NCBI GenBank assembly: GCA_049324495.1
Contig: JBMOOP010000128.1
Coordinates: 10,797 to 74,796 of the forward strand
Length of the DNA: 64,000 bases
Source of the DNA: Pseudomonadota bacterium
Lineage (GTDB): Bacteria; Pseudomonadota; Gammaproteobacteria; Pseudomonadales; JADFDG01
Reading direction: 5' to 3'
Of this stretch, positions 49,528 to 63,806 are shown piece by piece. A program made the translations under genes and the position numbers. The notes beneath the pieces are model-generated. The model was given only the letters and a program-made list of their open reading frames with translations, did not search any database and was not told where the DNA came from. Numbering within the stretch: the stretch's first letter is position 1; each line of letters begins with the position of its first letter.

Positions 49528-50802
49528 TCATTCAAGGAAGTGGTCTTCAATTGCGTGCATAAGGGGAGCCAGTTTATCGAGGCATTCCTGATATTCGGTC
49601 GCCGGATCGGAGTCTGCAACGATGCCGGCGCCGGCCCAGCCGTGCAGCACGCCGTTGCAGGTAACGAAGGTTCGGATGGCAATGTTGGAGCCGAACTGGC
49701 CATCGGCAGTAGCCCAGAAAATCGTCCCGCAGTAGATCGCGCGCGGGTGTGGCTCCAGTTCGTTGATGATTTCCATGGCGCGACGCTTCGGTGCGCCGGT
49801 GATCGAGCCACCGGGGAAGCAGGCTGCCAGTAGCTGCTGCATACCAACACCGGCCGGCAGGGTGCCGGTAACGGTGCTGACCAGATGGTGAACATTGTGG
49901 AATGATTCAACCTGAAAGAGCTCCGGCGTGCGGATAGAACCCGGCGCACAGACTTTGCCAAGGTCATTGCGCAGCAGGTCGACAATCATCAGGTTTTCGG
50001 CGCGATCTTTCGGGTGTGTTACCAAATCGGCCGCCAGTGCCGCGTCCGCGGCGGGGTCGGCCCCTCGCGCGCGCGTCCCCTTGATCGGGCGGGTGGTGAC
50101 GCACCTGCCATCGACTTCCAGGAACGACTCCGGCGACAGGCACAGTACCTGCCAGTCGCCGAAATCCAGCCATGCCGCGTAGGGCGGCGTAAACCGTGCC
50201 CGCAGGAGATCGAACGCCACACGCGGATCGCCTTCATAGCCGGCAGTGAAACGCTGGGCGAGGTTGACCTGATAGGCGTCGCCCGCAACGAGGTAATCCT
50301 GCACTCGCCGAACGGCCGCCATGTAACCGTCGCGCGTCCAGTCGGGTATGAAACGCCTGGTCAGACGAAACGGATCCGAGTGCCCGGCGATGTTGGCCTC
50401 GTCGTCGGTCGGGCTGCCCGGCACGCTGCGGCGGAAATGATCGAAAAACGCCATCCTGGCCGGAAGCCTGACCTGCATCGCCCCCCCGTCGTCCGGATAG
50501 GGCAGCAGCCCCACCAGCAACCCGGCCGACCCGGACGCCACCAGTTCATCCACGGCGCCTGCCAACTGTCCGATCAGGCCGTCGGCGTTCCGGGCCTGCC
50601 ATTGCCGGGCCGGGCCCGAGGCGATCAGGGACATCGCCTGCCCGCTGCCGGGCAGGCGCGTGTCGATCCGGCAGCGGGGGTGGCGATCTGGCGGGGCGGG
50701 CGGTTGGTGCATGGGCTGACCGTTGGGCGGCCCGACGGGTGAAGGACCCCGGGGTTTCGTGAGGTGCTGTCGAGCCGTTATAGTATCAGGGCTTGTGGCC
50801 AT
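49528..50802 (-). CDS. pabB: Aminodeoxychorismate synthase component I (chorismate-binding enzyme)
   Basis: C-terminal chorismate-binding blocks (FPGGSITGAPKRRAMEIINELE, RAIYCGTI, NIAIRT, GAGIVADSDP). The start is uncertain: ATG at 50802, 50712 or 50634. Confidence 0.85.
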   Translation of the reverse strand: MATSPDTITARQHLTKPRGPSPVGPPNGQPMHQPPAPPDRHPRCRIDTRLPGSGQAMSLIASGPARQWQARNADGLIGQLAGAVDELVASGSAGLLVGLLPYPDDGGAMQVRLPARMAFFDHFRRSVPGSPTDDEANIAGHSDPFRLTRRFIPDWTRDGYMAAVRRVQDYLVAGDAYQVNLAQRFTAGYEGDPRVAFDLLRARFTPPYAAWLDFGDWQVLCLSPESFLEVDGRCVTTRPIKGTRARGADPAADAALAADLVTHPKDRAENLMIVDLLRNDLGKVCAPGSIRTPELFQVESFHNVHHLVSTVTGTLPAGVGMQQLLAACFPGGSITGAPKRRAMEIINELEPHPRAIYCGTIFWATADGQFGSNIAIRTFVTCNGVLHGWAGAGIVADSDPATEYQECLDKLAPLMHAIEDHFLE

Positions 50803-50890: not shown

Positions 50891-53614
50891 ATGCACATGC
50901 TTACCGGACGTTTCCGTATTCATCGCTTGCTCCCTCTGCTCGGGGTCCCGGTGCTGTTTGCGCTTGCCTGTACCGAACTGCGTGCAGCAACGATTTTCGT
51001 GACCTCTGCCACCGACAGCTTTTCCACTGCGGATGGTTGCAGCATTCGCGAAGCCCTGATCAACGCCAATACCGACAGCAAATCCGGCTCGGTCGAATGC
51101 GCACGCGGCTCCGGCGCCGACCTTATTGTATTGCCGCCGCAAACCATCAACATGCAGGGGTCGGCCGCTGAAGAAGACGATCCGCGGGTGGGCGACCTGG
51201 ATGTCACCAGCGACATCACGTTTATCGGCGGTGGTGCGCAGTTCAGCCTGCTCGAAGCAGATTACGGTGGCCGTATTTTCGACGTCCAGGCCGGCGGCAC
51301 ATTGACGGTGCGCGGTCTGACGCTGCAACGCGGTATGGCTGCGCAGGAAGGCGGCGCGATCCGCGCCAACCTCGGCTCTACGCTCAACATCAACGACGTT
51401 GTGATTGGATCGGCGATCGTCTCTGCCAGTGCCGTTGGCGGCAGGGGCGGCGCGATCTACATCGGCCCTGGCGTTGCCGCCAACCTGTCGCGCATGCAGA
51501 TTGCCTACAACACCGCGCTGGGTTTGAACGGCGAGGGTGGTGGCATCTACTGTGACGGTTGCCAACTCGCGGTTACTGCCACGACATTCAACGACAACGA
51601 GGCCAGCGCGAGTGGCGGGGCGCTCTATGCGGCACCGGGAAGTTCCGTCGCGCTCTCGTTTGTCACCTTCGGCTACAACGGCGCGGCGGTGGGTGCGGGC
51701 ATGCATCTGCTGGGCGATGCAACACTCAGAGGCGTGCTGGCTGCCGACAACGGCAGCGGCCTGAGCGGTGACGACCTGCTCTGCACCGAGGGTACATTCT
51801 CGGCGACCTATTCGTTCGTTGAGTTTCCCGGCGCCGACTGCGTGCTCGGCACGTCCAATAAAACGCGCAGTGATGTCGCACCTGCGGTTGAGCCGGCCCT
51901 TCTTCAGGAAGCGCTCCTCCAGCGCTTCGACGGCCAGCCAAGCGGCGTGCTGCAGTGGCGTTATGGCGGTTTCTTTGCCGTGCCGGCAGCCCAATGTGCC
52001 GGGTATTCCGACCAGCATGGCCGCCGCGGCGCCGACATCGACGACTGCGACATCGGCGCCTTTTCGCGCCCCGTGCTTGGCGTCAATCCGATGGTCTCGC
52101 AGTCGAGCACCAACGGTGATCCCAGCCTCTTTGGTTTCGGACTGTTCCGCGTGCCGACGGTCGACACCCTCGTGCACCTGAACCCGATCGGCGGTATTGC
52201 CGAGCCTTGCAACGTATCGGTGCCGGACATCAGCATCCCGGCCAACTCCGTCAGCGCCCAGTTGCTGATCGATCCCGATACCCTGTTCAGTGCACCGGCA
52301 ATCGGGCGGCCGTTTCGCGTTTGCGAGTTCGAGCTGGTGGTGACCAGCGGCCCCTCGACGCTCGTGGGCGCACGCAGCGGTGTCCTGCGCATCAAACTGA
52401 ACGACACCTCGCTCGCCGCCGCCGCAGGCGTGTCCTCACCGCCGCCGGGCACTTACCTTGAATTTGGCAGCGTCCCGGTCGGCAGCGGCGGTACCGCCAA
52501 CCTCGTGTTTTTGCCTGCGGTTGCCGGCTGGGACATCACCGGCATCAGTTTCGGGGGTGCCGATCCGTCACGCTTCTCCTCGCCGGCGGCCGGCTTTCCG
52601 ATTCCGGTCCGAACCCGCGATGAGGGCGGCACCAGCCTACCCTTCCAGTGTGCAGGCGGCGTCCTGGGTGCCTACGATGCCTTGATTCAGGTGAACACCA
52701 ATAACCCGACGTTCCCGGTACTCGTCTACGCTGTTCGGTGTCGCGTGGTCCACCTGCTGTCATTGATTGCCAGTGGCAATCTCGTGTCGGAAGCGGGCGG
52801 TGGCGGCAGCGTCGAGTTCACCGTTGCCCTCGATTCGGCGAGCGTCCTGCCGGGCCCTCTCAGCGTCGATCTTGCCGAAGTGGCAGGCAGCGCCACGTCG
52901 CTCAGCGGCGATTACTCCGCTTTTGGCCAAACGATCACCTTCAACCCCGGCGAGCAGCAGCACAGCGTCAGTGTCAGCATCTTCGACGACACCCTGATCG
53001 AGGATACCGAGACATTCGGCGCGCGCCTGGTGCTTGCCCCGCAGGACGACGTTCAGCTTGTCGGTGCATCCGAAGCCACCGTCGTCATCGCCAACGATGA
53101 TTATCCGGTGCAGGCCATGACGCTGGCACTCGATGGCATTCCCGAGCGCACGGCAGCCGGTGTGCGCATCGCGGCGACTGCGGTTGTGACCAACACCGGT
53201 ACGGACCCCCTTCACGACCTGGGCGTCACCATCACGGTCGATGCGCCGGTACGGATCGTCAGTTTTGCCATTGCCTCTGCCGCCTGCGGCCTGAGCGGGA
53301 ATCAGCGTTCCGCCCAGTGCACCCTCGATGGCGATGTGCCGTCGGGCGAGTCCCGGACCTTTGCGGGAACGATTGAAATGGCTGAGATGAAAGACGCGCC
53401 CATGCTGGATCTGGACGGCGTCGTCGCGGTATCGGCCACCGCCACTGCGGCGACGATCCCGCTTGCCGTGACCGACGAAGCGAGCTACACGATCATTGGC
53501 CAGGGCATCAACCTCGGTTCTGTGACCAGCTTCTCATTACTGCCTTTGCTGCTCCTGGGGCTGCGGGGAATCGGGCGTTCCGCTGGTCGGATGACCCGTC
53601 GAATCGGTTGCTAG
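50891..53614 (+). CDS. Large secreted beta-helix surface protein: CSLREA motif N-terminus, Pmp-type GGA[IL]/FxxN repeats, Calx-beta domain, C-terminal hydrophobic-basic anchor-like tail
   Basis: ATG at 50891 gives the signal peptide MHMLTGRFRIHRLLPLLGVPVLFALACTELRAA. Other features are DGCSIREALINAN (CSLREA-type motif), GGAIRAN/GGAIYIG/GGGIYCD/GGALYAA with FNDN/FGYN, a Calx-beta-like GDYSAFGQTITFNPGEQQHSVSVSIFDDTLIEDTETF...VVIANDD, and the C-terminus GSVTSFSLLPLLLLGLRGIGRSAGRMTRRIGC. Confidence 0.75.
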   Translation: MHMLTGRFRIHRLLPLLGVPVLFALACTELRAATIFVTSATDSFSTADGCSIREALINANTDSKSGSVECARGSGADLIVLPPQTINMQGSAAEEDDPRVGDLDVTSDITFIGGGAQFSLLEADYGGRIFDVQAGGTLTVRGLTLQRGMAAQEGGAIRANLGSTLNINDVVIGSAIVSASAVGGRGGAIYIGPGVAANLSRMQIAYNTALGLNGEGGGIYCDGCQLAVTATTFNDNEASASGGALYAAPGSSVALSFVTFGYNGAAVGAGMHLLGDATLRGVLAADNGSGLSGDDLLCTEGTFSATYSFVEFPGADCVLGTSNKTRSDVAPAVEPALLQEALLQRFDGQPSGVLQWRYGGFFAVPAAQCAGYSDQHGRRGADIDDCDIGAFSRPVLGVNPMVSQSSTNGDPSLFGFGLFRVPTVDTLVHLNPIGGIAEPCNVSVPDISIPANSVSAQLLIDPDTLFSAPAIGRPFRVCEFELVVTSGPSTLVGARSGVLRIKLNDTSLAAAAGVSSPPPGTYLEFGSVPVGSGGTANLVFLPAVAGWDITGISFGGADPSRFSSPAAGFPIPVRTRDEGGTSLPFQCAGGVLGAYDALIQVNTNNPTFPVLVYAVRCRVVHLLSLIASGNLVSEAGGGGSVEFTVALDSASVLPGPLSVDLAEVAGSATSLSGDYSAFGQTITFNPGEQQHSVSVSIFDDTLIEDTETFGARLVLAPQDDVQLVGASEATVVIANDDYPVQAMTLALDGIPERTAAGVRIAATAVVTNTGTDPLHDLGVTITVDAPVRIVSFAIASAACGLSGNQRSAQCTLDGDVPSGESRTFAGTIEMAEMKDAPMLDLDGVVAVSATATAATIPLAVTDEASYTIIGQGINLGSVTSFSLLPLLLLGLRGIGRSAGRMTRRIGC

Positions 53615-53724: not shown

Positions 53725-54579
53725 ATGACCTTCAAAAAACTTACCCTAGTCACCGCGATCGCGGCGGCACCCTTCACGGCGTTCAGTGCCTTTGCGGCCG
53801 AGTCGCTCGATGACGCCGTGCTGAGTGGCGTTACCGGCCAGGATGGTATCGCCATCAACCTCGGTCTCAACGTCACCACCAACGCGATCGTTCACGACAC
53901 CGACGGTATCGACAATGTCTCGACGACGTACTCGTTCGACGGCGCGATCATCGTCACGGGCCTCAACATCAACACCCAGGGTAACGATATCCGGGTCGAG
54001 GTTGACGCCGGTGACAGCAGCACCGCTGCGGGCACGGCGCCGGTTCTGAACATCAATGTCGCTATCCCGACCGGCACCACGATCCAGACCGGCACGCTGC
54101 GGGTGGGTAACTCCAACCGTGACGATGCCAGCGGCTGGGGCTATGAGGCCGGCACCGTGTCGGGTGTGATCATGTCCAACGCCACGATCACTCTCGGCGC
54201 GACAACCGCCAACATCCAGTTGGGCAACGAAGCCCAGGGGAACATGATCCAGATCGATACCGTCATCACCGGCGGCGTCTCGATTGCGAACAGCACCCTG
54301 AACGACGCAGGCGGTGCGCTGACCGGCGGCACCATCGGTTCGTCCAACCTCCAGATACTCGACAACGGCGGTACGGACCTGACCGTGGATGTCGGCGTGG
54401 ACGTGACCGCAACCGACGGCTTGCTGATCACCCTGAATCAGGTGGGCGCTGCGGCCACGGGCTTTGACATGCGTATCGAGCGTCAGTACCTGGGCACCAC
54501 GACCCTGGGCTACATCGGGGATGTCGAGCTGACGGGCGTCAACCTGAACGGTTCGACGATCGGTATTTCGGGTAAATAA
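53725..54579 (+). CDS. filA: Putative fibre/pilus major subunit, FilA-like (DUF6160-type), paralogue 1
   Basis: Strong SD (GGAGAAAG). The Sec signal MTFKKLTLVTAIAAAPFTAFSAFA is followed by the conserved ESLDDAVLSGVTGQDGI motif. The mature part is Gly/Thr/Asn/Ile/Val-rich with alternating hydrophobic residues and no Cys, ending in ...GSTIGISGK. The symbol is given by analogy to the Acinetobacter fil locus from memory. Confidence 0.6.
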   Translation: MTFKKLTLVTAIAAAPFTAFSAFAAESLDDAVLSGVTGQDGIAINLGLNVTTNAIVHDTDGIDNVSTTYSFDGAIIVTGLNINTQGNDIRVEVDAGDSSTAAGTAPVLNINVAIPTGTTIQTGTLRVGNSNRDDASGWGYEAGTVSGVIMSNATITLGATTANIQLGNEAQGNMIQIDTVITGGVSIANSTLNDAGGALTGGTIGSSNLQILDNGGTDLTVDVGVDVTATDGLLITLNQVGAAATGFDMRIERQYLGTTTLGYIGDVELTGVNLNGSTIGISGK

Positions 54580-54586
54580 GGGCCCT

Positions 54587-54623
54587 GGGGGGCGGCGGGC
54601 GGGTCCTTCCGTCCGCCGCCCCT
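54587..54623 (+). terminator. GC-rich hairpin after filA paralogue 1 (attenuator or terminator)
   Basis: GGGGGGCGGCGGGCGGG-TCCTT-CCGTCCGCCGCCCC: a roughly 14-bp stem with one mismatch, starting 8 nt after the stop. There is no clear T-tract. Confidence 0.5.
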
Positions 54624-54782
54624 GTCATTCGTCGGCGGTTTGTCATTGTTCTGTACGTGAGTTAGGGGTTTCGTGTTAACTTCTGGTCGGGCAATGTCCT
54701 CGGGGCAGGGCCTCAATGAACAAAGAATGTGCATTTCAAAACAAAAAACGACAAGACCCCGCAAGGGGATAAGGAGAAGAAT

Positions 54783-55622
54783 ATGACCTTCAAGAAACTT
54801 GCGCTCGCCTCAGCCATCGCCCTGGTTCCGGTTTCCGGCTTCTCGCTGGAAGCGCTCGACGATTCCAGCCTCGGTGACGTCACCGGCCAGGACGGTATCG
54901 AGATCGACATCTCCACCGCGTCGCCGATTACGGCGGATTTCTATATTCACGACACAACCGGCTTGGGCAGCACGGCCGCCCCGACGGGCACCCATACCTT
55001 CGACGGCGCCATCGTCATCGATAACTTCTCGTTCAACGGCACGGTCAATATCGACATCGATGCTGGCGACAATGCCAACGCAGCACCATCGGCTCCGGTG
55101 TTGCAGATCAATGTCAGCGTCCCGACAGCGACGATCATCACCGGCGACCTCAGGGTGGCCAACTCGCAGCGTGACGACGCAACGTCTAACTGGGGCGTCA
55201 ACACCATCTCTGGTGTGCTGCTGAACACCATGACCATCGCCATGTCCGGCCTGACGCTCAACATACAACTCGGCAACGAGCCGCAGGGCAACATGATCCT
55301 GGTGAACTCGACGATCACCGGCGGCCTCTCGATCAACAGCTTTGCCCTCAACGACGCAAACTCAGGCGGTGCCGCAATCGGCGCGTCCAACATCTTGGTT
55401 CGGGATACGGCTGGCGGTGCCGACCTGAGTCTCAACGTCGGCGTGGATGCCAGCACGGCCGGGCTTGTCATTGACGTGAACAACATCGGTACGTTGGCGG
55501 GTGGTATGGATCTCCGCATTACCGATCTGTACCTTGGCACCACGGGTGCGGGCATAGTCGGCGATGTGACCGTCGTCGGCCTCAACCTTGCCGGTTCCAC
55601 GGTCACCATCTCCGGCAAATAA
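54783..55622 (+). CDS. filA: Putative fibre/pilus subunit, FilA-like (DUF6160-type), paralogue 2
   Basis: The ATG at 54783 follows AAGGAGA. MTFKKLALASAIALVPVSGFS is followed by LEALDDSSLGDVTGQDGI. It is collinear with paralogue 1 (roughly half of positions identical by eye) and has the same C-terminus ...GSTVTISGK. Confidence 0.6.
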   Translation: MTFKKLALASAIALVPVSGFSLEALDDSSLGDVTGQDGIEIDISTASPITADFYIHDTTGLGSTAAPTGTHTFDGAIVIDNFSFNGTVNIDIDAGDNANAAPSAPVLQINVSVPTATIITGDLRVANSQRDDATSNWGVNTISGVLLNTMTIAMSGLTLNIQLGNEPQGNMILVNSTITGGLSINSFALNDANSGGAAIGASNILVRDTAGGADLSLNVGVDASTAGLVIDVNNIGTLAGGMDLRITDLYLGTTGAGIVGDVTVVGLNLAGSTVTISGK

Positions 55623-55640
55623 TCCAACGCTTCACCGCTC

Positions 55641-55691
55641 CGCAGGAAGCCCGGCTCCGGCCGGGCTTCCTCGTTCCTGCGGGATATTTTT
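55641..55691 (+). terminator. Hairpin/likely terminator after filA paralogue 2
   Basis: A perfect 11-bp stem GGAAGCCCGGC-TCCG-GCCGGGCTTCC (55645-55670) is flanked by CGCAG/CTGCG and followed by a T-rich stretch (GATATTTTTCTCT). Confidence 0.6.
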
Positions 55692-55822
55692 CTCTGCATT
55701 ACAAAAGTCTACACGGGCCGGCTTGCGGCGCCGGGCACCGCATCGCTAACCTAGCGCCTCATAACAAGAATTCGGCTGTTTTGCCCGCCCGGGCAGACAG
55801 CCCCCAGGCTCTGGGGTAGTCG

Positions 55823-56632
55823 ATGTTGGCCGTTCTGGCAGGCGCCATTCTGATGCTCGTCGCTTTGAATAATGTCGCGGTGGTCGAAGACCAACCGGCG
55901 GGTATTGTTCAATACGAGCATCCGCAGCGCTTCGGCGCGATACGGGAGCGCGGGGTCACAGTCAAGCCGGACAGTGTCGTGAAATATCACGGTATCGTTC
56001 GTCAGGCCTATGACTACAGCTGCGGTTCTGCGGCGCTCACTACCTTGCTCAACGGCTACCTCGGCCGCCAGTTTCACGAACGACAGATCATGGAAGGCCT
56101 GCTGCGTTTCGGCGAAACGGACAAAATTGTCGAGCGGCGCGGCTTTTCGTTGCTCGACATGAAACGCCTGGTCACCGCGCTGGGCCATCCCAGCGGCGGT
56201 TTTCGCGCCACAACCCAAGACCTGGTCGTGCTCGACCACCCGGCAATCGCGCCGATCGGTTACGCTGGCTTCAAGCATTTTGTCGTGATCAAGGGCTTTC
56301 GCGACGGCCGCGTGTTCGTGGCCGATCCGGCACTGGGCAACATTTCGTTCTCGATCACCCGTTTCGAGGAAGTGTGGCTCGACAATGTGTTGTTCATCGT
56401 GTTCCCGAACGGCTTTGAACCGCAGAAGACGCTCGATATTGCGGACACCGATTTGCGCTATATCGATGAACAAACGATTCGGCGTCTGTCGTTCGCCCAG
56501 CCGGAAGTGTTCCTGCCGGCTCGCGAGATCGAGGCGGATCGCGCTGCTTCGCTCGTTCCGGTGTACATCGAGAATTCGAAAGGGAAACTTGAAATCATCA
56601 ACGTGCCGCTGCGGACGTATTTCGCGCGCTGA
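55823..56632 (+). CDS. filB: Stand-alone membrane-anchored C39-family cysteine peptidase (FilB-like)
   Basis: N-terminal TM/signal anchor MLAVLAGAILMLVALNNV. The C39 catalytic Cys context is QAYDYSCGSAALTTLLN. The His/Asp region is GFKHFVVIKGFRDGRVFVADPALG. No ABC transporter domain is fused. Confidence 0.7.
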   Translation: MLAVLAGAILMLVALNNVAVVEDQPAGIVQYEHPQRFGAIRERGVTVKPDSVVKYHGIVRQAYDYSCGSAALTTLLNGYLGRQFHERQIMEGLLRFGETDKIVERRGFSLLDMKRLVTALGHPSGGFRATTQDLVVLDHPAIAPIGYAGFKHFVVIKGFRDGRVFVADPALGNISFSITRFEEVWLDNVLFIVFPNGFEPQKTLDIADTDLRYIDEQTIRRLSFAQPEVFLPAREIEADRAASLVPVYIENSKGKLEIINVPLRTYFAR

Positions 56633-56654: not shown

Positions 56655-57782
56655 ATGCTGACATTTGCCCGTACCTCCTGGATTGCCGCTTTGGTGCTGC
56701 TCGCCATGGCGCCTCTCACTCATGCCGAGGATGTACCGGTATCGCCTGAGCCTGCCACTTCTGCACCCGAAGCCACTGCCGCTCCGGCAACGGCCGAACC
56801 TGCAGCGCCTGTGGCGACGGCTGCGCCGGCCGCTACGCCGCCGCCGGCCGATGCCGACAAAGCCCGTGAAGCCTTGACGGCAAAAGAGGGGGATGTCACC
56901 GCAGAGAAAAACCTGGAGGAAGTTTTCCAGGCGGCAGAGAAGCAGTACTCCTTGCTCAAGTCGGGCCAGATGGATATAGGGTATTCGTTCAATTACGGTT
57001 ATTTCCGCAACGATCGCATCGATATTGCCTTCAACGACGGCGGCAGCATCAGCCGGTTCCTGATCGAGCAGGACGCCCAGCATTCCTTTTCCAACTCTTT
57101 TTCGTTCGATTACGGCGTCTGGAACAACCTGACGATCAACGCGCAGTTGCCACTGCTTTTCAAGTATGACTCGGCCAAGGATATTTCCGGTGCAGCGTTG
57201 GGCGATGTGTCCTTGGGCCTGCGCTGGCAACCGTTCGCACTCAAGCGTGGCGCGCCGGTCAGCACCCTGTTTGCCACCTTCTCGACGGCCACCGGCGACA
57301 GCCCCTACAAGATCAATCCGAACACGGATCTGTCGTCCGGCAAGGGCTACTACGCCACGTCGTTCGGTGCCTCGGCCAGTAAGGTCATCGATCCGGCGGT
57401 CGTCTTCGGCAGCCTGAGTTACACCATGGGTTTCGATGCGACCGATCTGGATCAGGCACGCGGTGAGCGTATTCTGACCGAGTTTCACCCGGGTGATTCG
57501 GTCAGCTTCTCGATGGGCCTGGCCTACTCGCTGTCCTACGATTTATCGATCAGTGTGTCCTATCAGCAGAGCTATGCGTTCCAGAGCGAATACCTGTTCA
57601 GCAACGGCGATTTCGTCGGTTCCGAGGATTCCACCTCGGCTTCGCTCAGTTCGTCGGTGGGCGTGCGCATGTCGCCGAAGCGGATCGTCAATATAGGGCT
57701 TGGTTTTGGCCTGACCGAGGAAGCATCCGATGTCACGATCGGCATTTCCCTGCCGATCGATATCGCTGGCCTCAAGAAGTGA
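56655..57782 (+). CDS. filC: Outer-membrane beta-barrel 'transporter' (MetA-pathway/phenol-degradation-like family; FilC-like) with a Pro/Ala-rich N-terminal spacer
   Basis: The ATG at 56655 follows AAGGACGAG. It has the signal peptide MLTFARTSWIAALVLLAMAPLTHA, then a spacer of about 50 aa (PEPATSAPEATAAPATAEPAAPVATAAPAATPPPA), then alternating-pattern beta strands (GYSFNYGYF..., SFSFDYGVW..., LSISVSYQQSYAF). The family call is from memory of similar loci. Confidence 0.55.
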   Translation: MLTFARTSWIAALVLLAMAPLTHAEDVPVSPEPATSAPEATAAPATAEPAAPVATAAPAATPPPADADKAREALTAKEGDVTAEKNLEEVFQAAEKQYSLLKSGQMDIGYSFNYGYFRNDRIDIAFNDGGSISRFLIEQDAQHSFSNSFSFDYGVWNNLTINAQLPLLFKYDSAKDISGAALGDVSLGLRWQPFALKRGAPVSTLFATFSTATGDSPYKINPNTDLSSGKGYYATSFGASASKVIDPAVVFGSLSYTMGFDATDLDQARGERILTEFHPGDSVSFSMGLAYSLSYDLSISVSYQQSYAFQSEYLFSNGDFVGSEDSTSASLSSSVGVRMSPKRIVNIGLGFGLTEEASDVTIGISLPIDIAGLKK

Positions 57783-57827: not shown

Positions 57828-59489
57828 ATGACCAAGCTGCACGTGTTTTTCCGGTGGGCTACAGTGCTGGCGCTGTTTGCGTCACAGGCAGCTCCCGCCC
57901 AGGTGGCGACCAACATCGCGGTCGACGTTCGCGCGATGGCGCTGGGCAACGCAGTAACTGCCGATCCGCCGGGAATCAGTGCCATCCATTTCAATCCCGC
58001 CGGCCTTGCCAAGCTGGAAGGTCGGCGTATCGATCTGCAGTTCATTGCGGCTGATTTTGCACTCAATTCGAAATTCACCGCACCGCCGGGCTACGAGGTG
58101 TTTGGTTTTTCGGACGATCCGGTCGTCTGCGCCGATCCGGCCAACGACGGTGCCGATCAATGCCGCGAGTTCAAAACCGGTAACAGCAGTGTCGCCGGCG
58201 TTTCACTTTATCTGCCGGTGATCGATCAGGTCGTGGACTTGCCGCCGGGGCCCATCATGTTCGGTCCCCTGCCGGCCTTTTCCATCAGGCCGGCGGGTTC
58301 GAAAGTCACCTTTGCCAATGGTATCTATGCACCGCTGGTTGCCGGTTTTCACCGCAACGAAGACGATCCGGGCAACTTTCTGGGTAAACGCGTGGCGCTC
58401 GAACGCATCACTTATTTGTCACCGTCGTTGGGTTGGCAGGTCAATGATCATTGGGCCGTCGGTATGTCGGTCGGGCTCTCCTACCAGGCGGTTTCCTTGG
58501 AAACCGATTTCCGCTCGCCGAACGAACTGCTTGGTTTTGCGCGGGTGCTCGACGAAGATATTTGTGCGCCGTTTCGCGGTGAGTCGAACGTCGTGCTCGA
58601 CATTTTTCTGTTCGGTGCCTGTGGAGCGGAGGAGGGCCTCGATCCGTTTGAAAGCCTCGCCACCATGGACCTCAGCCTGGAGCAGCGCATGTCGCCGAGC
58701 TACAACCTCGGCGTGCTGTGGGAACCGAACGAAAAATTCTCCTGGGGCCTGGTCTGGCAATCCGAGGCCAACATGGACCTCAAGGGCAAGTACAAAATCA
58801 CCTACGAAAAACCGACACGCGACGTGTTGAATTCGGTCGGCAGTTCGCCAACCGGCGCCATTGCGCTCGCCGTGCTTGGCTTGCCCAGTTATGTCCCCCA
58901 GGAGGAAACGGGCCTGCTGTCCATGGGGCTCATCTATCCTGCGCACCTGCAAACCGGCATCAAATACGGTTTCCTGCCGCGCTGGCGGCTGAATATGGAT
59001 GTTGGTTGGGCGGATTACGGCAAGTGGGCGGCTTTCAACGTCAAATTTGACCGCAATATTGCTGCGCTGAGCCTGGCCCGGCTGCTCGCGCCCGGTGTCA
59101 CCCAGAGTTCGTTGTCGTTACCGCTGGGTTTTCAGAGCACATGGAGTATGGGGATAGGTGTCGAGTGGGATTTCACCGATCGCCTCACGTTGCGGATGGG
59201 TTATGAACCGCGTTCTTCCGCGATCCCGGAAAATAAGCGCAGCCCGCTCGTGCCAATCAACAAGGCGGTGCTGTACGGTTTGGGGCTGGGTTATAAATGG
59301 GACAAGGATTCGCAGGTAGACATTACCTTCGCCTACATGCACAGCAAGGACAGCATACCGGCGGACTCCAGTTGCGCAGCAAACTGCACGGGCCTGGACA
59401 ACATCATCTATAACCCGTACGCGGGCCTGGATATTCAGACGTCGGCCGAGATTCTTTATTTTGGCTTTGCCTATCGCACCACTTGGTAA
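57828..59489 (+). CDS. filD: Outer-membrane protein of the OmpP1/FadL/TodX family (FilD-like)
   Basis: ATG at 57828. It has the signal peptide MTKLHVFFRWATVLALFASQAAPAQ and a FadL-like N-terminal hatch (RAMALGNAVTADPPGISAIHFNPAGLA). The C-terminal beta-signal ...ILYFGFAYRTTW ends in an aromatic residue. Confidence 0.7.
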   Translation: MTKLHVFFRWATVLALFASQAAPAQVATNIAVDVRAMALGNAVTADPPGISAIHFNPAGLAKLEGRRIDLQFIAADFALNSKFTAPPGYEVFGFSDDPVVCADPANDGADQCREFKTGNSSVAGVSLYLPVIDQVVDLPPGPIMFGPLPAFSIRPAGSKVTFANGIYAPLVAGFHRNEDDPGNFLGKRVALERITYLSPSLGWQVNDHWAVGMSVGLSYQAVSLETDFRSPNELLGFARVLDEDICAPFRGESNVVLDIFLFGACGAEEGLDPFESLATMDLSLEQRMSPSYNLGVLWEPNEKFSWGLVWQSEANMDLKGKYKITYEKPTRDVLNSVGSSPTGAIALAVLGLPSYVPQEETGLLSMGLIYPAHLQTGIKYGFLPRWRLNMDVGWADYGKWAAFNVKFDRNIAALSLARLLAPGVTQSSLSLPLGFQSTWSMGIGVEWDFTDRLTLRMGYEPRSSAIPENKRSPLVPINKAVLYGLGLGYKWDKDSQVDITFAYMHSKDSIPADSSCAANCTGLDNIIYNPYAGLDIQTSAEILYFGFAYRTTW

Positions 59490-59490
59490 C

Positions 59491-60318
59491 GTGATTCTGC
59501 GTACGCTCCTCATTGGTTTGCTCGCTGCGCTGGCTGCCTGTCAGGGCGCTGCTCCCCGCAGCACAGCCGGCCAGCCGGGCGAAGTTGTGTTCGTGGACGC
59601 CGTCGGCAATCGCATGCATGTTGATGTCGCACATGAACCTGCCAGATCGCCGTCTGCCAGCGAATTCGGCGGCGAGCAATTCGTTGATGTCGATACCCTC
59701 GATCAGCAGGCAGATCAGCGCAGTCGCGATCGTTTCTACCCGATTCCGCAGCCCGGTGGCGAGCCCGGCATTGTCAGCGCCCGCGCCCTTGGCGTCGAGC
59801 CTGCCGGCAGCGCGATGCAGGCAGAACCTGCAAAGCAGATACCTGCCGAACTCAGGACCTGTTCGCAGGGGCCGGTCATCGAACACCTCCTGGTGCGCGA
59901 AACCCCGGCGCTGCATGTGGATCTGGTGTTCCCGGTCTATGGCGACTCGCTGGCGCCGTTACGACGTTATGCCGGCCATGCATTGCCGCTACCGGCTGGT
60001 GCTGTGGCAGTACGGTTGTGGGTAATCGTGCAGGGCACAACGGCGCCGGATCTGGTCGCGCTGCTTGTCGATCGCGATGGTCGCGTCACTTCGATCGTTA
60101 ACAACATTGCGACTGAATCGATACCGGAAAATCTGTTCCGCTACGGTAGAGTCGGCAGTGTGATTCCGTTACCGCGAGAGGCCGCCTCCGGGGAGCGTCT
60201 GGTGGTTATGGAGGGGCATTGGGCCCGCAAGATACTGCCGGTTGAGTGCCAGCCAGCCACATCGCTCGGCGCTGCAGTGGCTGGCCGCACCACACTTGAA
60301 TTTCTGATGGGCGAATGA
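59491..60318 (+). CDS. filE: Lipoprotein of unknown function (FilE-like by position)
   Basis: The GTG at 59491 gives (V)ILRTLLIGLLAALAAC (lipobox LAAC). I recognise no other motif. The start is uncertain (the ORF opens at 59461, overlapping filD). Confidence 0.5.
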   Translation: MILRTLLIGLLAALAACQGAAPRSTAGQPGEVVFVDAVGNRMHVDVAHEPARSPSASEFGGEQFVDVDTLDQQADQRSRDRFYPIPQPGGEPGIVSARALGVEPAGSAMQAEPAKQIPAELRTCSQGPVIEHLLVRETPALHVDLVFPVYGDSLAPLRRYAGHALPLPAGAVAVRLWVIVQGTTAPDLVALLVDRDGRVTSIVNNIATESIPENLFRYGRVGSVIPLPREAASGERLVVMEGHWARKILPVECQPATSLGAAVAGRTTLEFLMGE

Positions 60319-60326
60319 GGCAAGCG

Positions 60327-62138
60327 ATGAAGTTTCGCGCAGGGTGCAGGGTGCTCATGAGCGCCCTGTTGCTTGGTCTGGCCGGTTGCGACATTGCCCC
60401 TGATGCCAGACTGGGCGATCCGATCAACAGCGGTGCTGGTGGCGCTGATGGCAGTCAGCTTGATCCGAATGCAGACGGAAACATCGCCGTTTTTTTCTAT
60501 CTCGATCGGCCTGTGGTCGGCTTGCGTTTCAGTTGCACCAGTTCGGGAGCCCTGCCAATTATTACCGGGCAGACCGACGGTAACGGGCGTCTTGTTTGCC
60601 CGCGCAGGGCCAGACTCGCTTTTTTCATCGGCGATCCCGCTGAATTGAAACTGGGTGAGGTCGATCTCGGGATATTCGGCCGTGAAGGTGAGGCCGACGC
60701 GCGCAACTACGTCACGGTTACGCCGGCCACGCTCGCCGGAACCCTGGCTGACTCGAACAACGCTGTCGTGACCAATACCTTCAATCTGTTGACGACGCTC
60801 GATGCCGGAACAGGGGGTGGTCGGCAGGCCGTTATCCACATCACCGATGCCGTGCATACCGCCTTTTCGCCCCACGCAAACAGCCTTGCGCTCGATGCCC
60901 CGGTAATTGGTTTTGACTCCGCACTTGAGACAATCGCGCTCGCGATTCATGCAGAAACAGCCAATTCCCTGCGCAACGGCGGTCTTGCTCTGACCGATGT
61001 CCAGGCGCGGGTTCTGGCGGATACGTCCATTCTGCGTGCGCGCTCGGGTATGTACCGTTCGCTGGGCGGCATGAGTGACACCAATGATTTCATCACCAGC
61101 CTTGGTTTCAGCGGCAAGGTGATTTTCTCGGTTGCGCGCAGCGGACGAGTGGCGGGCATTGCCCAGTTCACGCGAATCGACAATGGCGTACAGCCGCCGG
61201 GGTTCGCGCTTGAGATAGGTCCACTGGTCGATGACTCGCGGCTGCTGCCGGACGGACGCCTGGTGCACGGTACCGCCGCAGCTGCAGGCTTGCGCTGGCT
61301 TTCGGCGGCAAACGACGATCTGCTGCTCACCGGCCGCCTGGTGAATGACTGGCTGTTTGGCAATATCGAGAATCTCGATCCGGAACAGAATCACCGCGTG
61401 CCGTCAAATTATGTGTTTTCGTCAACCGATCTGGGCTATTTCCGGGTGAACGGTAATCAGTTTGAAGGCGAGACGTCGGTCTACGCGAGTGCGCTCAACA
61501 CCCCCGGCATCGAGCTCGATGAGTTGCCGGCCGAATTTCTGCCGCGAACCATTGGCCTGAAGTACAGGGGCTATCCGGATGGCGAGAAGGTGACGGATGC
61601 ACAACGGGCCAGCTCCACTTATCTGAACGCTGAAACCGAGCACGAGTTATTTTTCCGTATCCTTGCCGACGGTGACATCGTCAGCGATGTCGACCGCGAC
61701 TGCGAAGACATCTCCCTGGTTGGCAATCAATTGCGGGATGCAAGTAGCACGCAGGAGTTTTACGTGGGCCACGTCGGCGCCATTTTCAAAGACGACGAGG
61801 GGAACCCGTACATCACGATGATCCTGGCGATCTATGAACCGGGTCATCCGCAATACGGGTTCACGCTGGGTGCCCCGGCTTTGGGTCGCAGCACCCTCGA
61901 TTCGGTGGTGTACGACGTAAATCGCGGGGAATTGCGCAGCAAGAACTGCGATCCGAAAGATGATCCCTGCACCGAGCCGGTCGAGTGGTTCGATGACGTT
62001 TTTTACATCAGGGAAGTGCTCAAACCGATCCTCGCACAGGGCATTACGGACGTGGAGGATGCCGATCTGTACTTCCGTGATCCGGGCTATTACGGCCAGA
62101 TCACGCTCAATGCCGACATCTGTACGGTCCCACCCTGA
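60327..62138 (+). CDS. filF: Large lipoprotein of unknown function (FilF-like by position)
   Basis: The ATG at 60327 follows GAGG (MKFRAGCRVLMSALLLGLAGC, lipobox LAGC). An alternative ATG at 60315 forms an ATGA overlap with filE. About 600 aa, with no recognisable enzymatic motif. Confidence 0.5.
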   Translation: MKFRAGCRVLMSALLLGLAGCDIAPDARLGDPINSGAGGADGSQLDPNADGNIAVFFYLDRPVVGLRFSCTSSGALPIITGQTDGNGRLVCPRRARLAFFIGDPAELKLGEVDLGIFGREGEADARNYVTVTPATLAGTLADSNNAVVTNTFNLLTTLDAGTGGGRQAVIHITDAVHTAFSPHANSLALDAPVIGFDSALETIALAIHAETANSLRNGGLALTDVQARVLADTSILRARSGMYRSLGGMSDTNDFITSLGFSGKVIFSVARSGRVAGIAQFTRIDNGVQPPGFALEIGPLVDDSRLLPDGRLVHGTAAAAGLRWLSAANDDLLLTGRLVNDWLFGNIENLDPEQNHRVPSNYVFSSTDLGYFRVNGNQFEGETSVYASALNTPGIELDELPAEFLPRTIGLKYRGYPDGEKVTDAQRASSTYLNAETEHELFFRILADGDIVSDVDRDCEDISLVGNQLRDASSTQEFYVGHVGAIFKDDEGNPYITMILAIYEPGHPQYGFTLGAPALGRSTLDSVVYDVNRGELRSKNCDPKDDPCTEPVEWFDDVFYIREVLKPILAQGITDVEDADLYFRDPGYYGQITLNADICTVPP

Positions 62139-62241: not shown

Positions 62242-62925
62242 GTGTTTCCCCACCCAGATACAGACGAGAGCACCGCGCGCACCGCTGCTGACCGGGTCTT
62301 TGAAGCCCTGCAGGCAGCGATCATCCGTGGCGATATCCCGCCGGGCGCCCGGATCGGCGAGACCGAACTCGCAGAGCGTTTCGGTACCAGTCGCGGCCCG
62401 CTGCGCGAGGCACTGCGGCGGCTCGAATCGCGCCGGCTGGTCGAGCGCACCCCTCATGTCGGCATCCGCATTGCCTCACTTACCCACGGGGCCTTGATCG
62501 AGATTTATTACGTTCGTGAGGCCCTTGAGGGCATGGCCGCACGGCTGGCCGCCATGCACATGACGGCGGGTGAAGTTGTCGGGTTGCACCAGTTATTGGC
62601 TGAGCACCAGCGTGACGAGGCGCTGCAAGCCGACACCGCTTATTTCCAGCAGGAAGGCGACCTCGATTTCCACTATCGCATCATCAATGGCTCGCATAAT
62701 CGCGCGCTGACCGAACTGTTGATCGGCGAGCTGTACCATCGGGTGCGCATGTATCGCCAGCAGTTCAGTGCCTACGCCAATCGGCCGCAGAAGGCTTTCA
62801 GCGAACATCTGCGCATCGTCGAAGCAATCGAAGCCCGTGACGGGGATCTCGCCGAAATGCTGATGCGCCGTCACATCAGTGCTGCCCGCCAGAATATCGA
62901 ACGCCACTTAAAGGAGAGCGCATGA
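62242..62925 (+). CDS. GntR-family (FadR/FCD subfamily) transcriptional regulator of the methylcitrate (prp) operon
   Basis: Winged-helix block [36 protein letters not shown] followed by an FCD-like helical domain. There is an ATGA overlap with prpB. Confidence 0.85.
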
Positions 62926-63806
62926 CCAGAAAACTCACTGCCGGCGGCCATTTTCGCCTCGCCTTGCGCGAGGAAAAACCGCTGCAGGTAATCGGCACCG
63001 TCAATGCCTACGCGGCGATGATGGCCAAACGCACCGGCTACCGCGCCATTTATCTTTCCGGTGCCGGTGTTGCCAACTATTCTTACGGCCTGCCGGATCT
63101 TGGCATTACCTCGCTTGAGGATGTGTTGATCGACGTGCGCCGCATAACCGGCATGGTAGATACGCCGCTGCTGGTGGATATCGATACCGGTTGGGGCGGG
63201 GCGTTCAACATCGCCCGTACTGTCAGGCAGATGATTGCCGCCGGTGCTGCCGGCGCGCACATTGAGGATCAGGTTGCACAGAAGCGCTGTGGCCATCGTC
63301 CGGGCAAAGAAGTGGTCTCGCAGGAAGAGATGGTCGACCGCGTCAAGGCCGCCGTTGATGCCAAGACCGATCCTGATTTCGTGCTGATGGCACGTACCGA
63401 CGCGCTGCAGAGCGAAGGCCTGCAGGGCGTGATTGATCGTGCCTGTGCGTTTGTTGAGGCCGGTGCCGACGCCATTTTCGCTGAAGCGATGACCGACATC
63501 ACCATGTACAAAAAAGTGTGTGATGCCGTGAAGGTACCGGTGCTCGCCAATATCACTGAATTTGGCGCCACGCCGTACTACACGCGCGAGGAACTGGGAG
63601 CGCAGGGCATTGCCATGGTGCTTTATCCATTGTCCCCGACCCGGGCGATGCAGCGCGCTGCGCTGGCAGTGATGCAGGCCATCCGTGATGAAGGCACGCA
63701 GAAAAATGTGCTGGAGTTGATGCAGACGCGTGCCGAACTCTACGATTTTCTCGGCTATCACGCCTACGAAGACAAACTCGATCAGTTGTTCAGGAAGGGG
63801 AAGTGA
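62922..63806 (+). CDS. prpB: 2-methylisocitrate lyase
   Basis: 294 aa in the PEP mutase/isocitrate lyase family. Readable blocks are [48 protein letters not shown] and ARTDA. Confidence 0.93.

What the first reader, a model, noticed from the sequence alone, without database searches (positions are those of the whole stretch)
53725..56632. Double-glycine-leader-like motif right after the Sec signal of both subunits, paired with a periplasm-facing stand-alone C39 peptidase
After the predicted signal-peptidase sites, both subunits carry the same motif: ..AESLDDAVLSGVTGQ|DGI.. and ..SLEALDDSSLGDVTGQ|DGI... Counting back from the Q gives V at -4, L at -7, L at -12 and A or L at -15, with G at -2. 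This is the spacing of hydrophobic residues (-4, -7, -12, -15) and the small -2/-1 pair that C39 peptidase domains recognise in double-glycine bacteriocin and quorum-peptide leaders (consensus L.x.x.E.L.x.x.I.x.G.G). The next operon begins with a C39-family protein that keeps the catalytic Cys context (YDYSCGSAALTTLL) and a His/Asp region (KHFVVIKG...VADP). Instead of being fused to an ABC exporter, it has a single N-terminal TM anchor and so probably faces the periplasm. A Sec-exported substrate that is then trimmed by a periplasmic C39 enzyme would be an unusual, undescribed maturation route. The trimming might expose a new N-terminus for polymerisation or donor-strand exchange.
Basis: inference. 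Interest (0 to 1): 0.7.

Follow-up and report, generated by a model that had tools for sequence, protein, structure and literature searches.

The report
Fil fibre subunits with C39-leader-like motif
Two tandem surface-fibre subunit genes carry, just after their export signal, a highly conserved short motif that resembles the leader cut by C39 peptidases, and an intact membrane-anchored C39 peptidase lies next door; the gene system and periplasmic C39 enzymes are already known, and the proposed cut is plausible and testable but unproven.

Summary
The sequence features are real. The locus is a homologue of the Acinetobacter filABCDEF "putative pilus" operon, in an Alcanivoracaceae-like bacterium. 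It holds two FilA (DUF6160) subunits, then FilB (C39 peptidase), FilC (FapF-like barrel), FilD (FadL-like) and two lipoproteins.

FilB keeps Gln61, Cys67, His152 and Asp168. Its model superposes on ComA, PCAT1 and LahT peptidase domains, and it starts with a hydrophobic helix. Its closest named relative is FapD, the periplasmic C39 peptidase of Pseudomonas amyloid secretion. A periplasmic C39 acting on Sec-exported proteins is therefore not undescribed. FapD's substrate, however, is still unknown.

The motif (h-x-x-h-D-D-x-x-L-S-x-x-T-G-Q-D-G-I) begins right after the signal-peptidase site. It is the most conserved block of the FilA family and is modelled as a short helix plus a flexible linker ahead of the beta-rich body. 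Its hydrophobic positions -4, -7 and -12 and Gly -2 fit the requirements measured for LahT150.

Three points weigh against it:
- Position -1 is Gln, not Gly/Ala/Ser.
- Conservation continues past the proposed cut.
- The bare pattern arises in about 10% of random peptides of this composition.

Cleavage by FilB is the best single hypothesis (about 0.4). An uncleaved secretion signal is the main rival.

The parts
53725..54579 (+). filA1: FilA-family fibre subunit (284 aa) with a DUF6160 N-terminus
   Evidence: PF19657 at E 1.6e-11. NCBIfam pilus_FilA 211.5 bits against a cutoff of 220. 208 homologues at E<=0.001. AF2 model pLDDT 79, all-beta body from residue 42. No significant PDB fold match.
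53725..53796 (+). Sec signal peptide of FilA1 (aa 1-24, ...SAFA|AE)
   Evidence: Family-wide, Ala occupies the aligned -1 site in 126/139 sequences and the -3 site in 93. An MTFKK n-region is followed by a hydrophobic core.
53797..53850 (+). FilA1 leader-like motif AESLDDAVLSGVTGQ|DGI (aa 25-42). Candidate FilB docking and cleavage site at the G38-Q39-D40 junction.
   Evidence: Most conserved block of the family. Modelled as helix 30-37 with a low-confidence linker 35-39, ahead of strand 42-46.
54588..54623 (+). GC-rich hairpin directly after the filA1 stop codon (attenuator or terminator candidate)
   Evidence: MFE -41.5 kcal/mol for 54580-54650, z -3.1, 0/200 shuffles as stable.
54783..55622 (+). 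filA2: second FilA-family subunit (279 aa), 51% identical to FilA1
   Evidence: pilus_FilA 223.4 bits, above the 220 cutoff. DUF6160 at E 3.5e-13. AAGGAG ribosome-binding site before ATG 54783.
54846..54899 (+). FilA2 leader-like motif LEALDDSSLGDVTGQ|DGI (aa 22-39)
55641..55673 (+). GC-rich hairpin after the filA2 stop codon, followed by a T-rich stretch
   Evidence: MFE -37 kcal/mol for 55623-55700, z -4.8. A terminator-like site at 55670-55683.
55823..56632 (+). filB: stand-alone C39 cysteine peptidase (269 aa) of the FapD clade
   Evidence: PF03412 58.9 bits against a cutoff of 22. NCBIfam pilus_FilB 292 bits and C39_FapD 104 bits; the best ABC-fused C39 model scores only 37 bits. Foldseek to ComA PEP 3k8u (TM 0.77, rmsd 2.5), LahT 6mpz (0.72) and PCAT1 PEP 7n87 (0.69).
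55826..55876 (+). FilB N-terminal hydrophobic helix (aa 2-18): signal anchor or uncleaved signal
   Evidence: AF2 helix 2-18 (first 10-residue block pLDDT 85, second 58), followed by a disordered linker 17-64. No K/R before the helix and conserved E/D after it in all homologues.
55994..56398 (+). FilB C39 catalytic domain (aa 58-192), with Gln61 (56003-56005), Cys67 (56021-56023), His152 (56276-56278) and Asp168 (56324-56326)
   Evidence: Alignment to PCAT1. All four residues invariant in alignment A2. Numbering checked.
56655..57782 (+). filC: FapF-like outer-membrane beta-barrel with an Ala/Pro-rich linker and a conserved pre-barrel helix
   Evidence: pilus_FilC 387.5 bits and FapF model 64.8 bits. 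NLEEVFQAAEKQYSLL.SG conserved in 28 orthologues (27 of 28 identical; the Litoribrevibacter copy, L042, is divergent).
57828..59489 (+). filD: FadL/TodX-family outer-membrane protein
   Evidence: PF03349 at E 3.9e-63. pilus_FilD 798 bits, with a weak PorV-family hit.
59461..60318 (+). FilE-position lipoprotein
   Evidence: Lipobox LAACQ. Positional orthologues share a DAQGN-type (DUF4124/MalM-like) motif.
60315..62138 (+). FilF-position lipoprotein (607 aa)
   Evidence: Weak pilus_FilF hit at E 1.8e-4. Lipobox LAGC. Positional orthologues. [quoted passage not shown]

Best explanation
The region is the front end of a Fil-type surface-fibre operon. Two abundant subunits (FilA1, FilA2) are exported by Sec and lose a classical signal peptide at A-x-A.

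The next ~15 residues (h-E-x-h-D-D-x-x-L-S-x-x-T-G-Q) form a short amphipathic helix plus a flexible Thr-Gly-Gln linker in front of the beta-rich body. This element is the DUF6160 signature.

I propose that it works as a periplasmic pro-leader. It docks in the hydrophobic groove of the membrane-anchored C39 peptidase FilB through positions -4, -7, -12 and -15. FilB then cuts at the G38-Q39-D40 junction as the unfolded subunit is passed to the FapF-like barrel FilC, with FilD and the lipoproteins assisting.

Shown here:
- gene identities and gene order;
- an intact catalytic tetrad and a C39 fold in FilB;
- exceptional conservation and extra-domain position of the motif;
- physical linkage of filA and filB.

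Inferred:
- periplasmic orientation of FilB;
- binding of the motif by FilB;
- cleavage and its exact position;
- coupling to secretion.
For: 1. FilB is an intact C39 peptidase. Q61, C67, H152 and D168 are invariant and the fold matches ComA, LahT and PCAT1 peptidase domains.
2. FilB and FilC are homologues of FapD and FapF. FapD acts in the periplasm, and its active-site Cys is required for FapC secretion (PMC5557850).
3. The motif starts at the signal-peptidase site and is the most conserved 8-mer window of FilA in 140 representatives. 132 of 150 representatives carry [TS]GQxG in the first 90 residues, and about eight of the 18 that lack it are N-terminally truncated fragments.
4. Family-wide residues fit the LahT150 mutational map: L/M at -7, M/L/I/V at -12, T/V/A at -4 (a V-4T substrate was fully processed), with -3, -5 and -8 tolerant. 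In the LahT complex, -1 to -3 are extended and -4 to -11 are helical (PMC6363468). AF2 puts FilA1 residues -10 to -3 in a helix and -5 to -1 at pLDDT below 50, outside the fold.
5. FilB-adjacent DUF6160 proteins have very different bodies and lengths (271-512 aa, from Moraxellaceae, Thalassolituus, Litoribrevibacter and L064). They share only this N-terminal block and the extreme C-terminus.
6. All 26 Alcanivoracaceae-type filA loci with enough downstream sequence have filB-filC-filD directly after filA.
7. No other protein in the 64-kb window carries the motif in a real reading frame.
Against: 1. Position -1 is Gln (131/138; Arg/Lys in 6). Canonical C39 sites need Gly/Ala/Ser there. The alternative register (cut after Gly38) puts Thr at -2, where Gly is normally required.
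2. No curated double-glycine leader model in Pfam or NCBIfam matches the peptide, even at E<=10.
3. Conservation is equally strong after the proposed cut (D40 125/139, G41 139/139, I42). DG-hydrophobic recurs inside the body (HDTDGI, FDGAI). Part of the block is therefore structural.
4. In the homologous Fap system, MS peptides covered FapB and FapC throughout ('no processing'). The suspected FapD targets are FapE or FapF. The target was still unstated in 2018 and 2025 papers.
5. The bare spacing pattern appears in about 10% of random peptides of this composition.
6. Linkage is not universal. Marinobacter DUF6160 genes have no filBCD within 10 kb. Four of seven filB-centred loci have no adjacent DUF6160 gene.
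Confidence: 0.4

Rival explanations
1. The N-terminal block is an uncleaved outer-membrane secretion or targeting signal. It would be recognised by FilC (FapF-like) and/or FilD and kept in the mature subunit. This would parallel the first 22 mature residues of curli CsgA, which direct secretion through CsgG. FilB would cleave something else, or only gate the system.
For: - Conservation spans both sides of the proposed cut.
- The extreme C-terminus is conserved as well, as expected if both ends are handling or assembly signals.
- FapB and FapC show no N-terminal processing.
- filBCD and DUF6160 genes can be unlinked, like a secretion system with scattered substrates.
- The CsgA N22 precedent is from my own knowledge (Robinson et al. 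2006) and was not checked here.
Against: - This does not explain why the signal has exactly the helix-plus-Gly architecture of C39 substrates.
- It does not explain why an intact protease is the most conserved protein of the module.
- Nothing here shows FilC or FilD binding.
Confidence: 0.3
2. The block is a structural or assembly element of the finished fibre, such as a cap helix or inter-subunit contact, with TGQDG as the first turn of the beta-rich fold. It has no relation to FilB.
For: - DG-hydrophobic turn motifs recur through the body, and G41 is the most conserved residue of the motif block (139/139) and among the most conserved in the protein.
- The pattern match to double-glycine leaders is only p~0.1.
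Against: - AF2 does not pack residues 25-39 onto the body (pLDDT below 55).
- The hydrophobic spacing of 3-5-3 is helical, not the alternating pattern of donor strands.
- The block is kept on bodies of very different size and sequence.
Confidence: 0.15
3. FilB acts on the machinery rather than on the subunit. One example is cleavage of the disordered linker or pre-barrel helix region of FilC, as suggested for FapD and FapF. The FilA motif resemblance would then be coincidental.
For: - Rouse et al. raise cleavage of FapF at the junction between its periplasmic and barrel domains.
- FilC has a long Ala/Pro-rich linker and a conserved ...YSLL.SG[QE]M junction.
Against: - The FilC junction lacks the -4/-7/-12 register, and its residue after SG varies (Q/E/D/N/K).
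- No experimental support exists in either system.
Confidence: 0.1

Closest known systems
Acinetobacter filABCDEF 'putative type III / thick pilus' cluster (A1S_0690-0695; NCBIfam NF050077-NF050081)
   Same: - Same gene order: A (DUF6160 subunit), B (C39), C (barrel), D (FadL-like), then two lipoproteins.
- Same flanking synteny (pabB upstream, GntR/prp genes nearby) in a Moraxellaceae locus.
- The FilA motif AM(E/Q)x(L/M)DDxxLSxxTGQDGI is shared.
   Different: - Scores fall below the narrow NCBIfam cutoffs for B, C, D and F, so these are homologues, not equivalogs.
- There are two tandem filA genes, each with its own hairpin.
- An extra 906-aa Calx-beta protein lies upstream.
- FilE and FilF are strongly diverged.
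- The Acinetobacter literature held here only reports expression in pellicles and FilF as an antigen and type II secretion substrate. It says nothing on FilA maturation.
Pseudomonas Fap functional-amyloid secretion system (FapD periplasmic C39 peptidase, FapF trimeric barrel)
   Same: - A stand-alone C39 peptidase outside the cytoplasm, next to Sec-exported fibre subunits and a dedicated barrel.
- FilB hits the FapD model at 104 bits and FilC hits the FapF model at 65 bits.
- FapD's active-site Cys is required for secretion.
   Different: - FilA is not an Asn/Gln-rich repeat amyloid protein and has no FapA/FapE counterparts.
- Fil adds a FadL-like protein and lipoproteins.
- FapD has a cleavable Sec signal, whereas FilB has an N-terminal hydrophobic helix with no n-region.
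- No recognition motif is known for FapD, and FapB/FapC appear unprocessed.
Double-glycine leader peptides cut by C39 domains of ABC exporters (ComA, PCAT1, LahT/AMS)
   Same: - Same peptidase fold and catalytic residues.
- The substrate element is a two-turn amphipathic helix with hydrophobic -4/-7/-12(/-15), then an extended linker with Gly at -2.
   Different: - The leader follows a Sec signal instead of being the extreme N-terminus.
- The enzyme is not fused to an ABC transporter and faces the periplasm.
- Position -1 is Gln, not Gly/Ala/Ser.
- The prime side is conserved.
- The cargo is a ~26-kDa beta-rich fibre subunit, not a small peptide.
Curli CsgA N-terminal 22-residue secretion signal (from my own knowledge, not checked here)
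   Same: A short segment directly after the Sec signal peptide of a fibre subunit is needed for passage through a dedicated outer-membrane channel.
   Different: It is not cleaved, no protease is in the system, and there is no sequence similarity.

Membership tests
Fil (FilABCDEF) putative pilus system | FilA subunit with a DUF6160 N-terminus | tested here: met
   PF19657 above cutoff for both proteins. pilus_FilA 223.4 bits (above the 220 cutoff) for FilA2 and 211.5 bits (just below) for FilA1.
Fil (FilABCDEF) putative pilus system | filB (C39), filC and filD directly downstream in that order | tested here: met
   Best NCBIfam hits are FilB 292, FilC 387.5 and FilD 798 bits. All are below the narrow equivalog-type cutoffs (475, 630, 970) but full length. 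The same order is seen in 26 related loci and in a Moraxellaceae locus.
Fil (FilABCDEF) putative pilus system | FilE and FilF lipoproteins | tested here: inconclusive
   Two lipoproteins sit in the right positions. FilF matches only at E 1.8e-4 and FilE has no model hit.
Fil (FilABCDEF) putative pilus system | Produces a surface filament | not testable with these tools
   No experimental paper on Fil filament structure or FilA maturation was found in the held library. Gohl et al. 2006 is not held.
Peptidase C39 | Pfam PF03412 match above the gathering score | tested here: met
   58.9 bits against 22.
Peptidase C39 | Catalytic Cys/His/Asp plus oxyanion Gln | tested here: met
   Q61, C67, H152 and D168 align to PCAT1 and are invariant in 22 homologues.
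Peptidase C39 | Papain-like C39 fold | tested here: met
   Foldseek to 3k8u (TM 0.77), 6mpz (0.72) and 7n87 (0.69), with rmsd 2.3-2.6 A. The model core has pLDDT 70-90.
Peptidase C39 | Fusion to an ABC exporter (bacteriocin-type members) | tested here: not met
   A 269-aa stand-alone protein, and no ABC transporter in the operon.
Double-glycine leader peptide | Gly at -2 | tested here: met
   G 135/138 and A 3/138, if Gln39 is taken as -1.
Double-glycine leader peptide | Gly/Ala/Ser at -1 | tested here: not met
   Q 131, R 4, K 2 and A 1 of 138. In the alternative register (cut after Gly38), -1 is met but -2 is Thr.
Double-glycine leader peptide | Hydrophobic residues at -4, -7 and -12 on a short helix | tested here: met
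   -7 is L/M in 138/138. -12 is M/L/I/V in 138/140. -4 is T56/V44/A25 (Thr is tolerated by LahT150). AF2 gives a helix at 30-37, at low confidence.
Double-glycine leader peptide | Leader is the extreme N-terminus of a precursor without a Sec signal | tested here: not met
   The motif follows a classical Sec signal peptide with an A-x-A site.
Double-glycine leader peptide | Match to curated leader models | tested here: not met
   Only DUF6160 and FilA models hit the 22-48-aa peptides at E<=10. HMMER's filters limit sensitivity for such short peptides.
Double-glycine leader peptide | Removed by the cognate C39 peptidase | not testable with these tools
   Needs N-terminal sequencing or MS, or an in-vitro assay.
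Fap functional-amyloid system | FapD and FapF equivalogs | tested here: not met
   FapD model 104 bits against a cutoff of 330. FapF model 64.8 bits against 700. These are homologues, not members.
Fap functional-amyloid system | Asn/Gln-rich imperfect-repeat amyloid subunit (FapC/FapB) | tested here: not met
   FilA matches no Fap model. Its sequence is Gly/Thr/Asp/Ile-rich and lacks the FapC repeat quoted.

The most novel reading that the evidence does not exclude
The DUF6160 N-terminal block is a second, periplasmic leader: Sec signal first, then a C39-type pro-leader. FilB-clade peptidases would remove it at a Gly-Gln(-Asp) site. This would be the first defined substrate motif for the stand-alone periplasmic C39 peptidases, the FapD/FilB clade whose target has been unknown since 2017. 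It would also define a widespread two-step maturation route for surface-fibre subunits in marine Gammaproteobacteria and Acinetobacter. The newly exposed Asp-Gly-Ile (or pyroGlu-Asp-Gly-Ile) end would license secretion through the FapF-like barrel or polymerisation.
Probability: 0.3. Interest if true: 0.75.

Novelty: new variant of a known kind. Interest (0 to 1): 0.5.

Why it matters
Stand-alone periplasmic C39 peptidases are required for fibre secretion in Pseudomonas (FapD), but nobody has identified what they cut or how they recognise it. The Fil cluster is conserved in Acinetobacter baumannii, where it is highly expressed in pellicles, and in oil-degrading marine bacteria (Alcanivorax, Thalassolituus). 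It has no described mechanism.

If the DUF6160 block is the FilB recognition site, it gives three things:
- a concrete, mutable 15-residue substrate for biochemical study;
- a way to predict the system's cargo genome-wide, since DUF6160 proteins are scattered in some genomes;
- an example of C39 specificity that departs from Gly-Gly.

If it is not cleaved, it is still a candidate outer-membrane secretion signal for a FapF-type channel.

Tried and rejected
1. Curated leader models. The motif peptides were scanned against Pfam and NCBIfam at E<=10 and only DUF6160/FilA matched.
2. Fold of FilA. Foldseek against the PDB gave nothing significant (best E 0.077), and sequence against the PDB gave nothing.
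3. A second FilB site in FilC. The SGQM at the FilC barrel junction looked similar, but the residue after SG varies (Q/E/D/N/K) and the hydrophobic register differs. Rejected as weak.
4. Motifs in FilE and FilF. The AGQPG in the window's FilE and the NGG after the FilF lipobox are either not conserved or part of the lipobox context. Rejected.
5. Other carriers in the window. Only the two filA genes have the motif; a third core hit lies in a non-coding frame inside pabB.
6. Whether Marinobacter, which has orphan DUF6160 genes, encodes FilB elsewhere. This could not be resolved.
7. Literature. No paper on FilA maturation, on DUF6160 function, or linking Fil to Fap was found. Gohl et al. 2006 on Acinetobacter pili is not held.

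Full report
WHAT IS THERE

The interval 53725-56632 holds three + strand genes.
- filA1 (53725-54579, 284 aa) and filA2 (true start ATG 54783 with an AAGGAG ribosome-binding site, to 55622, 279 aa) are 51% identical paralogues. Both match Pfam DUF6160 and the NCBIfam model 'putative pilus system protein FilA'.
- The third gene (55823-56632, 269 aa) matches Peptidase_C39 above threshold. Its best NCBIfam hits are 'putative pilus system C39 family peptidase FilB' (292 bits) and 'fibril amyloid maturation endopeptidase FapD' (104 bits). ABC-fused bacteriocin peptidases score only 37 bits.
- Downstream lie a FilC/FapF-like barrel (56655-57782), a FadL-family FilD (57828-59489) and two lipoproteins in the FilE and FilF positions.

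The locus is therefore a homologue of the Acinetobacter filABCDEF cluster. Its closest relatives are uncultured marine Gammaproteobacteria and Alcanivoracaceae.

THE OBSERVATION

Both motifs are exactly as quoted: AESLDDAVLSGVTGQDGI (aa 25-42) and LEALDDSSLGDVTGQDGI (aa 22-39). With Gln as -1, the positions are G -2, V -4, L -7, L -12 and A/L -15. The FilB strings are present.

FilB Gln61, Cys67, His152 and Asp168 align with the PCAT1 oxyanion and catalytic residues. They are invariant in 22 homologues spanning Alcanivoracaceae, Moraxellaceae, Litoribrevibacter, Bermanella, Thalassolituus, Oleiphilus and Hahellaceae. An AF2 model of FilB has a core pLDDT of 70-90. It superposes on the ComA, LahT150 and PCAT1 peptidase domains with TM 0.69-0.77 and rmsd 2.3-2.6 A.

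IS IT MORE THAN CHANCE?

The two paralogues are not independent. The loose spacing pattern occurs in 10-11% of random or shuffled 30-mers of FilA composition. The resemblance to a double-glycine leader is not significant on its own.

The conservation is what stands out.
- An exhaustive HMMER search of 1.84 billion cluster representatives found 261 relatives.
- 132 of the 150 best carry [TS]GQxG within the first 90 residues. About eight of the other 18 are N-terminally truncated fragments. The rest show conservative variants (TGRDG, TGKDG, AAQDG, AGQDG).
- In a 140-sequence alignment, the most conserved 8-residue window of the whole protein is residues 37-44, TGQDGIxI (3.5 bits against a mean of 2.03).

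Family-wide frequencies, numbered from Gln39 as -1:

| Position | Residues |
|---|---|
| -16 | Ala 126/139 (signal-peptidase -1 site) |
| -15 | M/L/V |
| -12 | M65 / L60 / I8 / V5 |
| -11 | D98 |
| -10 | D120 / E17 |
| -7 | L108 / M30 |
| -6 | S/A/G |
| -4 | T56 / V44 / A25 |
| -3 | T128 |
| -2 | G135 / A3 |
| -1 | Q131 / R4 / K2 |
| +1 | D125 |
| +2 | G139 (of 139) |
| +3 | I/L/V |

The motif begins immediately after the Sec cleavage site and is about 15 residues long.

STRUCTURE AND PLACEMENT

The AF2 model of FilA1 (pLDDT 79) gives a beta-rich body starting at residue 42. Residues 30-37 are a low-confidence helix, and residues 35-39 have pLDDT below 50 and are not packed on the body. The body has no significant match in the PDB.

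In the LahT150-leader complex, residues -1 to -3 are extended and -4 to -11 form a two-turn helix. [quoted passage not shown] Mutagenesis showed that -4 tolerates Thr but not Lys or Asp, that -7 and -12 are important, and that -3, -5 and -8 are not (PMC6363468). The family-wide FilA pattern fits this map at every position except -1.

TOPOLOGY OF FilB

All homologues start with about 18 hydrophobic residues. There is no basic residue before them and conserved Glu/Asp after them. AF2 models a helix at 2-18 followed by a disordered linker. By the charge-difference rule this orients the catalytic domain to the periplasm; this is an inference. FapD, the closest characterised relative, works when exported with an OmpA signal, and its active-site Cys is required for FapC secretion (PMC5557850).

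GENOMIC ASSOCIATION

All 26 Alcanivoracaceae-type filA loci with enough downstream sequence carry filB-filC-filD. filB-adjacent DUF6160 proteins also occur in a Moraxellaceae genome (271 aa), Thalassolituus (341 aa), an unnamed 4.8-Mb genome (512 aa) and Litoribrevibacter (370 and 377 aa). Their bodies differ greatly. They keep the N-terminal block, with TGQ(S/A)G, and a conserved extreme C-terminus...(S/Y)(G/A)(K/H).

Linkage is not universal.
- Bermanella, Alkalimarinus, a Hahellaceae contig and another genome have filBCD with no adjacent DUF6160 gene.
- Marinobacter DUF6160 genes have no filBCD within 10 kb.

This looks like a secretion module with cargo genes that are sometimes scattered. 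I could not establish whether Marinobacter has filB elsewhere.

WHAT IS KNOWN

NCBIfam already names FilA to FilF. The Acinetobacter literature in the held library calls A1S_0690-0695 a putative type III pilus that is highly expressed in pellicles. [quoted passage not shown] It gives no mechanism for FilA maturation. DUF6160 occurs in a single, unrelated paper.

The Fap system is the mechanistic precedent. [quoted passage not shown] MS showed no processing of FapB or FapC, and FapE or FapF are the suspects. The target is still open in 2018 and 2025 papers.

A defined recognition motif for this peptidase clade, however, would be new as far as I could find.

MOST LIKELY MECHANISM (confidence about 0.4)

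After Sec export and signal-peptidase cleavage, the amphipathic helix of the 15-residue pro-leader docks on membrane-anchored FilB. FilB cuts at the G38-Q39-D40 junction, and the unfolded subunit passes to FilC.

Two scissile bonds are possible.
- A cut after Gln39 keeps the canonical hydrophobic register and Gly at -2, but needs an S1 pocket that accepts Gln, Arg or Lys.
- A cut after Gly38 gives a canonical small P1 (G135/A3) and an N-terminal Gln that could cyclise. It puts Thr at P2 and shifts the register by one.

I cannot choose between them.

MAIN RIVAL (about 0.3)

The block is an uncleaved targeting signal for the FilC/FilD outer-membrane step, as for the N-terminal 22 residues of curli CsgA (my own knowledge). 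Three findings favour this: conservation continues across the proposed cut, the C-terminus is also conserved, and FapB/FapC are unprocessed.

Lesser rivals are a purely structural element of the fibre (0.15) and FilB acting on FilC or another component (0.1). A FilC SG(Q/E)M junction was examined and found unconvincing.

VERDICT

- The system is a known kind, a Fil cluster with Fap-like FilB/FilC. The proposed Sec-then-C39 pro-leader is an untested and apparently unpublished variant.
- It would make the open question of what periplasmic C39 peptidases cut directly testable with one peptide and one point mutant.

Noticed in passing
window 50894-53614 (+): A 906-aa exported protein with a Calx-beta domain lies directly upstream of filA1. 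It ends in a hydrophobic helix plus a basic tail (SLLPLLLLGLRGIGRSAGRMTRRIGC), which looks like a C-terminal sorting signal. It is syntenic only in the four closest loci (L001-L004).
   Followed up: partly
window 54588-54623 and 55641-55673 (+): Very stable GC-rich hairpins sit immediately after the stop codons of filA1 and filA2 (z -3.1 and -4.8 against shuffles). They would fit attenuation that sets a high subunit-to-machinery ratio. No + strand promoter-like site was found before filB.
   Followed up: partly
window 49528-50802 (-) and 62242-63806 (+); L047, L058, L060, L062, L064: The neighbourhood pabB | fil cluster | GntR-prpB is conserved in whole or in part from Moraxellaceae to Thalassolituus and the window (pabB upstream in L060 and L062; GntR-prpB downstream in L064). 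Marinobacter keeps only an orphan DUF6160 gene at the pabB slot. Bermanella keeps only filBCD there.
   Followed up: partly
window 54520-54576 and 55563-55619; L031-L057, L062, L064: The FilA superfamily also has a conserved extreme C-terminus: IGDVxLxGLNLxGxTIxISGK in the window, and ...(V/I)Y(G/A)H in the Marinobacter and Thalassolituus types. This is a second terminal signal of unknown role.
   Followed up: partly
window 56880-56950 (FilC aa ~76-98): FilC orthologues share a near-invariant NLEEVFQAAEKQYSLL.SG segment just before the barrel (identical in 27 of 28; the Litoribrevibacter copy, L042, is divergent). It is probably the counterpart of the FapF plug helix. It follows an Ala/Pro-rich disordered linker.
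   Followed up: partly
window 59461-60318; L007-L025, L058-L064: Proteins in the FilE position share a GG(L/F)Y.Y.DAQGN(L/M)VT motif (DUF4124-like), and in several genomes a MalM-like C-terminal domain. This suggests the core module is FilB-FilC-FilD plus a MalM-like protein.
   Followed up: no
L061 3844-5656: In a Hahellaceae contig, two 257-aa PEP-CTERM proteins, not DUF6160 proteins, lie upstream of filBCD. They lack the TGQxG motif.
   Followed up: partly
window 56398-56632 (FilB aa 193-269): FilB has a ~75-residue extension beyond the C39 domain. It is variable in length across the family but ends in a conserved basic-aromatic tail (...R.Y(F/Y).R(K/N)). Its function is unknown; it may contact FilC or the membrane.
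   Followed up: no
window 54729-54782: The mechanical ORF start for filA2 (GTG 54729) is 54 nt upstream of the real ATG 54783, which has an AAGGAG ribosome-binding site. Homologues all start at MTFKK.
   Followed up: yes
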